Source: Octopus vulgaris (taxonomy: Eukaryota). From it: 64,000 nucleotides of DNA. The stretch's first letter is position 1; each line of letters starts with the position of its first letter. Below are positions 10,717 through 13,830 of this stretch, in pieces. A model generated the notes under the pieces. It ran no database searches, was not told the origin of the DNA, and saw only the letters and a list, made by a program, of their open reading frames with translations. The translations under genes were made by a program, and so were the position numbers. The DNA is taken from contig OX597816.1 in assembly GCA_951406725.2 (NCBI GenBank), positions 52,700,001 through 52,764,000 of the forward strand, given 5' to 3'.

Positions 10717-11640
10717 ATGGAGGTAAGAGACAATTCCAGGAAGTTGCATATCCAAAGAGAAGAATTTGATAAAGAGTTTGGTATTAAACAAGAGATGTCC
10801 AGAATCTGAGGAAACTGGTGGCGGTGTGGGTCAGTAAAAAGGAATCCACAAGAGAGTTAGTTTGTAGAGTTGCTTTGACATGAGAAGGGAATGAATGTAA
10901 CATACCGAGAACTTGCTTTTGTTCTGAGAGTGAGAAAGAATACATGGCAACAGAGGATAAATAGAAGCAGAGAATATATAGAAATATAGTTGTGAGCATG
11001 AGAGAATATATAAAAACAAAGAATGTATAGAGATATTGTTACCTTGGTTGCAAAATAGAGTGTGTTTAATATAGAATCTGATAGGTGAAATATGGTAAGA
11101 ATAGTGTAAAGATAGGAGGCAGGTGCTTTCAGGGAATTATATAATGATGGTGGGAATCAGAAATTCCTCTCTCTCACTCTCTCTTTCTCTCTCTCCCTCT
11201 TTTTTCTCCCTCTTACTCACACTTACATATACCAAAGTTTCACCAAAAGAAACAATATGAAAGTGAGATATATCAAATTATTTGAGTCACCCAACAAGTG
11301 ATCTGTGCAAAGATCAAAGACAAACTTTCGTCCAGTAAGTTATGTAGCTTTAAATATACATATGTAAACTTATTCACAATTTATTAGGTTGCTGTGTCTC
11401 GCTAACTAAATCAATAAACCAGCAAAAGGAATTTCATAATTTCTTTAAGCACCGAATTGCCAGCCAATAACAGCAGGTGTACATAATTAATCAACATATG
11501 ATAATTATTTTAACCCTTTAGCAATCAGATTACTTTGTCAAATATGATGCATATTCATTCACATTGTTTTGAATTAATCATGCTTTACCTAATAATTTTG
11601 AGATTTCAAAAATGTCATTCATCATTTTTAGAATGAGATT

Positions 11641-12586
11641 TGCAGTGATGCTATCTTGGAAATCTCCAGCACGCATGCACAGAGTTGGAGTCTTCCAGGA
11701 GGCCTACCAGAAGTTCCCTTATGCGCATGCACAGAAAACTAGCAGCAGCGAAATTCCCTTGTATTGTTCTCTTGAATGCCAGCAGCTGAACAAGACATGT
11801 GTGTTTTATCAGCTCTCTCAAGCTGCTACCTTGTGACGTATCTCTGCTATGCTTGAATGGACAGGATTTGGCTCATGCCACTTGACTACTGCGATAAGCT
11901 CCTAGGCTGCCGATTCACCCGGAAAGAAGAAATGTATATATTGCAAATCAAGAAGTAAATATTTATACTGTGGTTGTATACTGTCAACTTAACGTGACAG
12001 TCCTGTATGGGAATTACACCACTCTGCCAGATCAGATTGGAGTCTGGTGTAGCCATCTGGTTTGCCAGACTTCAGTCAAATCGTCCAACCCATGCTAGCA
12101 TGGAAAGTGGGCATAAAACGAAGATGATGATGATGATCTTTGACACATTTTCTGTGTCCTTATATTTGTGAAGGGGAGGCAAGCACCCCCACCAGCCAAG
12201 ATTCACACCTAAGGACATGCATGTTTCTGGGTCTTCCCTTCACAAATATAAGGACACAGAAAATGTGTCAAAGTCAACAGGAAGCGTTCGATGCTTCCTA
12301 GGGCTAAACAGCGGTGGTGTAATTCCCATACGGGACTGTCACGTTAAGCTGGCAGTATACAACCACTCTATCGCTCCACCACTGCTCATGTCTCTTTGAG
12401 ACATTTAGAAATTTAATATTTTTAACATTTATACAGTTGAAGTTAATCAGAAGTCTTGACTCTTTCCTTCGATTAATAATTTTAATGTAAAGGATGCGAG
12501 CTGCACCCATCCAGTGTGGGGATCTCTCATCCTGTTACAATTGGTGACCCTGACATGATGGAGATTTCCAAGATGGCGTCACCACA
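11641..12586 (+). mobile_element. LTR + tRNA-Trp PBS + inverted copy of the LTR start
   Basis: TG start at 11641, gttaca end at 12539, PBS tggtgaccctgacatgat at 12542-12559 (16/18 match). 12560-12586 is the reverse complement of 11641-11667. Flanks are gatt and catt. Confidence 0.75.
11968..12424. repeat. Palindromic (fold-back) element, left arm interrupted by a family C SINE fragment (12024-12137)
   Basis: 11968-12022 pairs with 12312-12366 and 12138-12175 pairs with 12236-12273. Possible TSD atatttatac/acatttatac. Confidence 0.75.
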
Positions 12587-12686
12587 CATTGTAGAGTCAG
12601 TGTGAGAGGTTGGATGTGGTCAGTTTTAACATAAACAGATGGAATATTTGGGTCAGATATGGTCAGTTTAAATGCTAAGGGGTTAA

Positions 12687-13270: not shown

Positions 13271-13830
13271 CATCATCATCATCATCTTCGTTTAATGCCC
13301 ACTTTCCATGCTAGCATGGGTTGGACGATTTGACTGAAGTCTGGTGAACCAGATAGCTACACCAGACTCCAATCTGATCTGGCAGAGTTTCTACAGCTGG
13401 ATGCTCTTCCTAATGCCAACCACTCCAAGAGAGTAGTGGGTGCTTTTACGTGCCACCGTCATGAGGGCCAGTCTGGCAGTACTGGCAACTGGTATTTTTT
13501 ACATGCCACCTGCACAGGAGTTAGTCCAGCGGCACTGGCAACAACCTCGCTCAAATGTTTTGTTCACGTGCCAGTAAGGCGACGCTGGTAACGATCACAT
13601 TCAAATGGTGCTTTTTACATGCCACCAGCATGGAAGCCAGACAGCTGCTCTGGCAGTGATCTCGATCGGATGGAGCAGTTAGCGCTCTACTGGCACTGGT
13701 GCCAGTCATCGAATTTTGTGCAATTTCAATTTCACTTGCCCCAAAAGGTCTTCGCAAGTAGAGTTTAGTGTCCAATGAAGGAAGGTTGGCATGGGTGCCA
13801 GTCGTCGAATTTGGTTCGATTTCAAATTCG
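13271..13830 (-). mobile_element. SINE family C with a (GAT)n tail and internal repeated modules
   Basis: catcatc...ttccatgctagcatgggttggacg...cttcctaatgccaaccactcc, with repeated ggtgcttttac(g/a)tgccacc modules. Confidence 0.8.

What the first reader, a model, noticed from the sequence alone, without database searches (positions are those of the whole stretch)
11641..12586. LTR + PBS capped by an inverted copy of its own start: a possible integrated fold-back strong-stop DNA
Seen: a TG...CA LTR-like unit (11641-12539) and a tRNA-Trp PBS (12542-12559). Exactly after PBS base 18 come 27 bp that are the reverse complement of the LTR's first 27 bp. Flanks gatt/catt fit a 4-bp TSD with one mutation, and the host MITE resumes after it. 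Known: plus-strand strong-stop DNA is U3-R-U5 plus 18 PBS bases, because reverse transcriptase (RT) halts at m1A58 of the primer tRNA; integrase acts on TG...CA ends. Inference: the strong-stop strand primed on its own 5' end, giving two U3-type termini that integrase inserted. This is neither a solo LTR nor a TRIM, and could be a route from LTR retroelement to a TIR-bounded MITE-like element.
Basis: partly seen in the sequence, partly recalled or inferred. Interest (0 to 1): 0.75.

Follow-up and report, generated by a model that had tools for sequence, protein, structure and literature searches.

The report
Dead-end retrotransposon strand, re-capped and integrated
This 946-base insertion holds one retrotransposon end repeat, an 18-base copy of a tryptophan tRNA's end and a reversed copy of the repeat's first 27 bases; it is likely a stalled copying intermediate that gained a second insertion end and was pasted in once, and similar one-off insertions across this genome likely record chemical marks on the host tRNA.

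Summary
The LTR is about 431 bp plus a later 466-bp insert. Empty host-repeat copies carry one CATT (21 of 24), so the 4-bp duplication is real. Ordinary elements of this Ty3/gypsy group have a primer site of only 9-12 nt, so the 18-nt match is likely a DNA copy of mature tRNA-Trp, that is, plus-strand strong-stop DNA. I found 13 single-LTR insertions re-capped with a new LTR end: 8 with an inverted U3 start, 5 with a direct U5 end. Of the 11 with both ends located, 8 have perfect and 3 have 3/4 duplications. Every junction is unique, so nothing supports a spreading MITE. Fold-back on the strand's own start is possible, but priming against a second, nascent strand fits better. Copies that read past base 18 show errors opposite tRNA A58 (8 of 26 versus 5 of 267) and a second halt at G37, a likely fossil record of tRNA methylation. 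The intermediate is known; my searches found no report of such genomic insertions. This scan noted the same architecture before, in this genome and in others.

The parts
11510..11636 (+). Left part of the host repeat (abundant MITE-like element with 14-bp terminal inverted repeats, 13 of 14 complementary to 12673-12686)
11637..11640 (+). Left copy of the 4-bp target duplication (GATT; empty site has CATT)
11641..11969 (+). LTR, 5' part (U3 start TG), 87-90% identical to the 29 other copies fetched
11970..12435 (.). Later insertion in the LTR: a palindromic repeat found at other loci (89-92%), whose left arm is partly replaced by a 117-bp, 97% inverted copy of the repeat at 13272-13388 (12021-12137)
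12436..12539 (+). LTR, 3' part (U5 end CA)
12540..12541 (+). AT spacer between LTR end and primer site, as in other family members
12542..12559 (+). 18-nt DNA complement of the 3' end of mature tRNA-Trp(CCA), positions 76 to 59, ending one base before A58; 6-9 nt longer than the family's ordinary primer site
12560..12586 (-). Inverted copy of the first 27 bp of the LTR (second U3-type end); 5 of 6 microhomology between the tRNA-type tail and LTR positions 28-33
12587..12590 (+). Right copy of the 4-bp target duplication (CATT)
12591..12686 (+). Right part of the host repeat

Best explanation
The insertion is one LTR, an 18-base tRNA-Trp complement and an inverted 27-bp LTR start inside a 4-bp duplication; it is likely a dead-end plus-strand strong-stop DNA of a Ty3/gypsy element that likely paired with a second, short nascent plus strand and was then likely inserted once by the element's integrase. 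Steps: (1, shown) ordinary elements have a 9-12 nt primer site. (2, sequence shown, process inferred) the first plus strand copied the LTR and 18 nt of the primer tRNA and halted before A58, leaving a tail that the short primer site cannot accept; renewed priming at the polypurine tract would displace it, as described for Ty1/Ty3. (3, inferred) its free tail annealed by a 5-of-6 match to positions 28-33 of a nascent plus strand; each strand primed on the other, giving a full duplex with two U3 ends. (4, inferred from the duplication) integrase joined both ends. (5, shown) the copy later decayed and took a 466-bp insertion; no second copy of the junction was found. The core (strong-stop origin plus two-ended integration) I put at about 0.85; the 0.6 below is for the version with a second strand.
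For: Of 86 places where this LTR end meets a primer site, 84 distinct contexts were classed: 48 continue into one of four shared internal sequences after at most 12 nt of tRNA match; 21 by script, 24 with three added by hand, carry 17 or more nt of tRNA copy. The 9 tRNA-Trp gene copies printed are not followed by CCA, so the template was mature tRNA. Read-through copies err opposite A58 in 8 of 26 versus 5 of 267 at other non-CpG positions. Re-capped loci with both ends located: 8 of 11 perfect 4-bp duplications, 3 of 11 with one mismatch; solo LTRs of the family have 4-bp duplications (19 perfect of 29). Five loci are re-capped by a DIRECT U5 end, which needs a second strand. Folding shows no pull of the tail to LTR 26-37 in 5 of 5 natural copies. 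PMC5371799 section 2.2: repeated plus-strand priming displaces a dead-end tRNA-tailed strand in Ty1/Ty3.
Against: The final sequence cannot tell a second strand from the strand's own start: cap versus own LTR comparisons were not diagnostic (window cap matches 33 of 58 other copies better than its own start, L080 cap shares 20 rare 11-mers with its own LTR). Microhomology is weak or absent at L164, L071 and L074. The window's own duplication has one mismatch. One locus without any new LTR end (L083) also shows a 4-bp duplication. In L040, L121 and L076 an 18-nt or longer tRNA copy runs on into what looks like ordinary internal sequence, so the tailed strand is not always a dead end. Two U3-capped loci (L196, L197) lack a left end. 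No enzymatic step was observed.
Confidence: 0.6

Rival explanations
1. True fold-back: the displaced strong-stop strand primed on its own U3 start, and a later primer made the second strand before integration.
For: Same end product; the strand is single-stranded once displaced and its own start is always near; some whole-LTR palindromes (L198, L202) could be snap-backs; L080 cap and own LTR share rare variants.
Against: Needs one more priming step to give two duplex ends; cannot make the five direct U5 re-caps; no predicted pairing of tail and start.
Confidence: 0.27
2. One-ended integration: integrase joined the U3 end only and host polymerases patched the tRNA-tailed end by copying nearby element DNA.
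For: Known for ASLV and HIV, including joins to viral DNA in either orientation (PMC5041404, passages). Fits uncapped loci here, such as L089 (inverted host flank) and L198 (host duplication).
Against: The cap stops exactly at the LTR's first base and is followed at once by the 4-bp duplication; host patches are described as giving longer duplications and rearrangements. 11 of 11 re-capped loci with both ends have 3/4 or 4/4 duplications.
Confidence: 0.07
3. Two independent insertions in opposite orientation, followed by a deletion.
For: The family has at least 105 LTR ends; the cap differs from the own start at 4 of 27 sites.
Against: One shared duplication and no lost host base; the join falls exactly after tRNA base 18; the 18-nt site is not the family's ordinary primer site; the pattern recurs.
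Confidence: 0.03
4. A member of a spreading non-autonomous family (TRIM- or MITE-like) whose normal structure this is.
For: TG...CA inverted termini and several loci of like design.
Against: Junction found once; short-cap pattern found only here and at L071, with another junction (its control also had 1 hit); none of 13 junctions recurs among the 136 sites compared.
Confidence: 0.03

Closest known systems
Dead-end plus-strand strong-stop DNA of yeast Ty1/Ty3 (PMC5371799, section 2.2 read; primary paper PMC1170264 not held)
   Same: One LTR plus a copy of the primer tRNA end that is not used for strand transfer; short primer site that does not track the tRNA.
   Different: Described as unintegrated DNA in particles, with 12 nt of tRNA; here 18 nt or more, given a second LTR end and fixed in an animal genome with a 4-bp duplication.
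Retroviral plus-strand strong-stop DNA and its over-extended forms (PMC8599865 and PMC13191261, passages read)
   Same: Main halt one base before m1A58; a minor halt at modified base 37; sequence behind the primer site that resembles the tRNA T-arm (primer over-extension sequence).
   Different: Shown there in vitro or in cells for tRNA-Lys3 and tRNA-Pro; PMC8599865 says over-extended strands fail to integrate. Here they are genomic fossils of tRNA-Trp.
Aberrant one-ended integrations of ASLV and HIV-1 (PMC5041404, abstract and passages read)
   Same: One normal end, the other joined to element DNA in either orientation or to host DNA.
   Different: There the second end is host-made and lacks the short duplication; here both ends are LTR termini inside a 4-bp duplication.
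Solo LTRs and TRIMs (definitions recalled)
   Same: Short, non-coding, TG...CA ends, short duplication.
   Different: Solo LTRs have no primer site; TRIMs have two direct LTRs with a primer site and a purine tract. This has one LTR, a tRNA copy and an inverted partial LTR.

Membership tests
Ty3/gypsy LTR retrotransposon (parent family) | Direct LTRs with TG...CA, primer site, purine tract and short duplication in a full-length relative | tested here: met
   L248: about 5.1 kb, LTRs 93.8% alike, purine tract, CAGT/CAGT; its LTR is 83.6% identical to the window's
Ty3/gypsy LTR retrotransposon (parent family) | pol order RT, RNase H, integrase | tested here: met
   Pfam RVT_1, RT_RNaseH, Integrase_H2C2, rve in that order in L253 (related LTR family); same domains in pieces in L246 and L248
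Ty3/gypsy LTR retrotransposon (parent family) | RT tree placement (against BEL, which shares the domain order) | not tested
   no tree built; gypsy rests on domain set and 4-bp duplication (recalled criteria)
Plus-strand strong-stop DNA | One complete LTR followed by the complement of the mature primer tRNA including CCA | tested here: met
Plus-strand strong-stop DNA | tRNA copy ends one base before position 58 and exceeds the element's own primer site | tested here: met
   18 nt versus 9-12 nt in ordinary elements
Plus-strand strong-stop DNA | m1A58 present on this organism's tRNA-Trp | not testable with these tools
   indirect only: errors opposite A58 in 8 of 26 read-through copies
Solo LTR | Duplication directly flanks a single LTR, no primer site | tested here: not met
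   47 extra bases lie between LTR end and duplication
TRIM | Two direct LTRs around a short internal region with primer site and purine tract | tested here: not met
   second terminus is inverted and 27 bp; no purine tract
MITE | Terminal inverted repeats | tested here: met
   27 bp, 23 of 27
MITE | Many copies of one structure | tested here: not met
   one copy

The most novel reading that the evidence does not exclude
LTR retrotransposons regularly rescue their dead-end, tRNA-tailed plus strands into integrase substrates by pairing them with a second nascent strand, leaving an overlooked class of single-LTR insertions that pass as solo LTRs. Their tails are ancient in-vivo reverse transcripts of germ-line tRNA and preserve a readable fossil record of m1A58 and of a modified G37; the whole-LTR versions are ready-made hairpins that could seed silencing of their own family.
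Probability: 0.55. Interest if true: 0.65.

Novelty: new variant of a known kind. Interest (0 to 1): 0.5.

Why it matters
It shows the fate, in an animal germ line, of an intermediate known only from particles and test tubes; it shows that integrase likely accepts two U3 ends; it means some apparent solo LTRs never were full-length elements, which bears on recombination-rate estimates; and the tRNA tails give a way to read tRNA modifications and reverse-transcriptase behaviour from genome sequence alone. As a single locus it is an inert one-off.

Tried and rejected
Raw reads: 0 reads laid from about 3% of each of three runs, no test. Contigs of X3 and X9 begin at 12586 with three letters unaligned; this may be an empty allele or a paralogous host repeat, undecided. 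Cap-versus-own-LTR identity did not separate one strand from two. Left ends of L196 and L197 were not found in a further 10 kb. Script hits dropped before the count of 13: distant, weak 'U3inv' hits (L065, L078, L083, L085, L108, L052; 3 mismatches in 12 allowed), possible U5 re-caps in families whose LTR start I did not locate (L038, L044, L053, L056, L058, L115, L233, L244, L245), truncated inversions without a terminus (L105, L203, L204), the complex locus L198, and L157 (69% inversion far from the site). 110 of the 210 places were not listed and so not examined; 20 newly fetched ones added no re-capped locus that I could verify. Five ORFs of 60 aa or more near the locus were listed and not pursued. 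Literature: searches found no report of genomic single-LTR insertions with tRNA tails and a new LTR end; the library lacks most subscription papers, including the older retroviral circle-junction work that I recall. Searches did not confirm m1G37 for tRNA-Trp. No supplements were read.

Full report
Observation. The window lies at G000:C3:52700001 in a 2.8-Gb genome. The sequence is as described: TG at 11641, CA at 12539, AT, 18 nt complementary to tRNA-Trp, 27 bp that are the reverse complement of the LTR start at 23 of 27 sites, and GATT/CATT flanks. Pairwise alignment to a solo LTR shows a 431-bp LTR interrupted by 466 bp at 11970-12435. That insert is a palindromic repeat seen at two other loci at 89-92%, partly replaced by a 97% inverted copy of 13272-13388.

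Target site. A search with the right flank gave 40 scored matches; 24 other loci were read. 21 of 24 have one CATT at the insertion point, none has a duplication, and 22 also match the left flank. So 11641-12586 is one insertion with a 4-bp duplication, one copy mutated, and no host loss. Of 29 other family LTRs, 19 have perfect 4-bp duplications, 2 have 3 of 4, 2 have poor ones, 2 are followed by a primer site and 4 had no end found by the script. A contig from a public run spans the PBS-cap junction with 35 and 29 letters on the two sides, modest support against an assembly error; raw reads gave no test.

Parent family. Full-length relatives exist: L248 has LTRs 93.8% alike, a purine tract and a CAGT duplication, and is 83.6% identical to the window LTR. 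Pfam gives RT, RNase H and integrase in Ty3/gypsy order. The copies closest to the window (87-90%; L005, L073, L084) have another internal sequence, and no retroelement-like frame was seen in 10 kb behind L084, so the direct parent may be non-autonomous.

The primer site is a tRNA copy. All 86 places were fetched; 84 distinct contexts were classed. 48 run into one of four shared internal sequences after at most 12 nt of tRNA match. 21 by script, 24 with L082, L090 and the second end of L092 added by hand, carry 17 nt or more. 12 have a short site and unique sequence behind it. ARAGORN found tRNA-Trp(CCA) in 11 of 15 loci given; none of 9 gene copies printed is followed by CCA. The window's 18 nt match gene plus CCA at 16 sites, the two differences at CpG. 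The template was therefore mature tRNA, and the 27-bp block is not ordinary internal sequence.

Modification signature. tRNA-copy lengths cluster at about 18-22 and at 39. Among 26 read-through sites found without the read-through pattern, the base opposite A58 is wrong in 8, against 5 of 267 at other non-CpG positions (Fisher p = 1.2e-6). Caveats: my extension rule did not penalise position 58, which favours this result somewhat, and a few rows (L076, L118) may be inherited internal sequence. Of 15 sites that reach A38, the next base is the templated C in 8, A in 6, G in 1, and the copy ends there or within three bases in those 7. A halt before m1A58 is established (PMC8599865, passages), and a minor halt at modified base 37 is known for tRNA-Lys3 (PMC13191261, passages). 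That m1A causes arrest and mismatch is the subject of PMC4787781 (search listing only). m1G37 on tRNA-Trp is recalled, not confirmed.

A class of re-capped insertions. Inverted U3 start: window (27 bp), L071 (14 bp, GTTT/GTTT), L164 (about 60 bp, GTTG/GTTG), L080 (about 300 bp, AATG/AATG), L202 and L201 (long arms, other families, 3 of 4), L196 and L197 (left end not found). Direct U5 end: L085 ACCT, L052 AACA, L074 CGTT, L045 CACT, L200 ATAT, all perfect. So 8 of 11 are perfect and 3 of 11 have one mismatch; a chance 4-of-4 match is about 0.0055 at this base composition (my arithmetic). L071, L196 and L200 carry only 10-11 nt of primer site, so their tRNA origin is not shown. About ten uncapped tRNA-tailed loci with a located LTR start show no duplication except L083; L089 and L198 show host inversion or duplication, as in one-ended retroviral integrations (PMC5041404, abstract and passages). 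No junction recurs. Rows dropped are listed under Tried and rejected.

Mechanism. In Ty1/Ty3 the first plus strand copies the tRNA end, is displaced by renewed priming at the purine tract and accumulates as a dead end (PMC5371799, section 2.2). Here the primer site is 6-9 nt shorter than the tRNA copy, so the same is likely. The tail's last six bases match the complement of LTR 28-33 at 5 sites when compared with another family copy. If the partner was a nascent plus strand of about 30 nt, mutual priming gives at once a duplex with two U3 ends; a nascent minus strand gives the U5 re-caps. A fold-back on the strand's own start gives the same sequence but only one duplex end and needs one more step; folding of five natural LTR-plus-18 copies shows at most 0.005 pairing there. 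The sequence cannot decide. Against a strict dead end, L040, L121 and L076 show tRNA-length sites leading into what looks like normal internal sequence.

Novelty. The intermediate and one-ended rescue are known. Six searches found no description of fixed genomic insertions of this build or of their use as a record of tRNA modification; the library lacks most subscription papers, and no supplements were read. The scan's own notes describe the same architecture in this genome and in others; these are unreviewed and not independent evidence. I file it as a new variant of a known kind.

Noticed in passing
L046, L083, L087, L091, L157, L189, L202, L203, L074: tRNA copies end at base 39, just before G37, mostly followed by A then T: a likely halt and misreading at a modified G37.
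   Followed up: yes
L108:1491-1564: Nearly the whole tRNA-Trp is copied behind an LTR and is called as a tRNA gene by ARAGORN: a tRNA pseudogene made by an LTR element.
   Followed up: partly
L064, L073, L068, L062 types: Ordinary internal sequences behind the short primer site contain decayed pieces resembling the tRNA T-arm complement, like the primer over-extension sequence of lentiviruses (PMC13191261).
   Followed up: no
L197 and L201: Two different LTR families share the same join: 18-nt tRNA copy directly onto an inverted LTR end with three primer-site bases.
   Followed up: partly
L198 (G000:C25:9812000 region): Head-to-head LTR ends with 65 and 29 nt of tRNA between them, beside a deleted solo LTR duplicated with 120 bp of host flank; looks like a repair event.
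   Followed up: partly
L075 / L199: LTR end, 12-nt primer site, then an LTR start in direct orientation; resembles a circle junction or an element with no internal region.
   Followed up: no
L097, L116, L226-L245 (several): Short tandem units each made of an LTR-end-like motif and a primer-site-like motif; possibly another family's internal repeat.
   Followed up: no
window 12021-12137 and 13272-13388: 117-bp, 97% inverted copy of a neighbouring repeat replaces part of a palindromic element; likely a local templated patch.
   Followed up: partly
G000:C6:58.38-58.67 Mb: Cluster of about 18 tRNA-Trp-like matches, several confirmed as genes.
   Followed up: partly
window 11510-12686: Host repeat has 14-bp inverted ends beginning TTAA, piggyBac-like by recall; 3280 first-look candidates.
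   Followed up: partly
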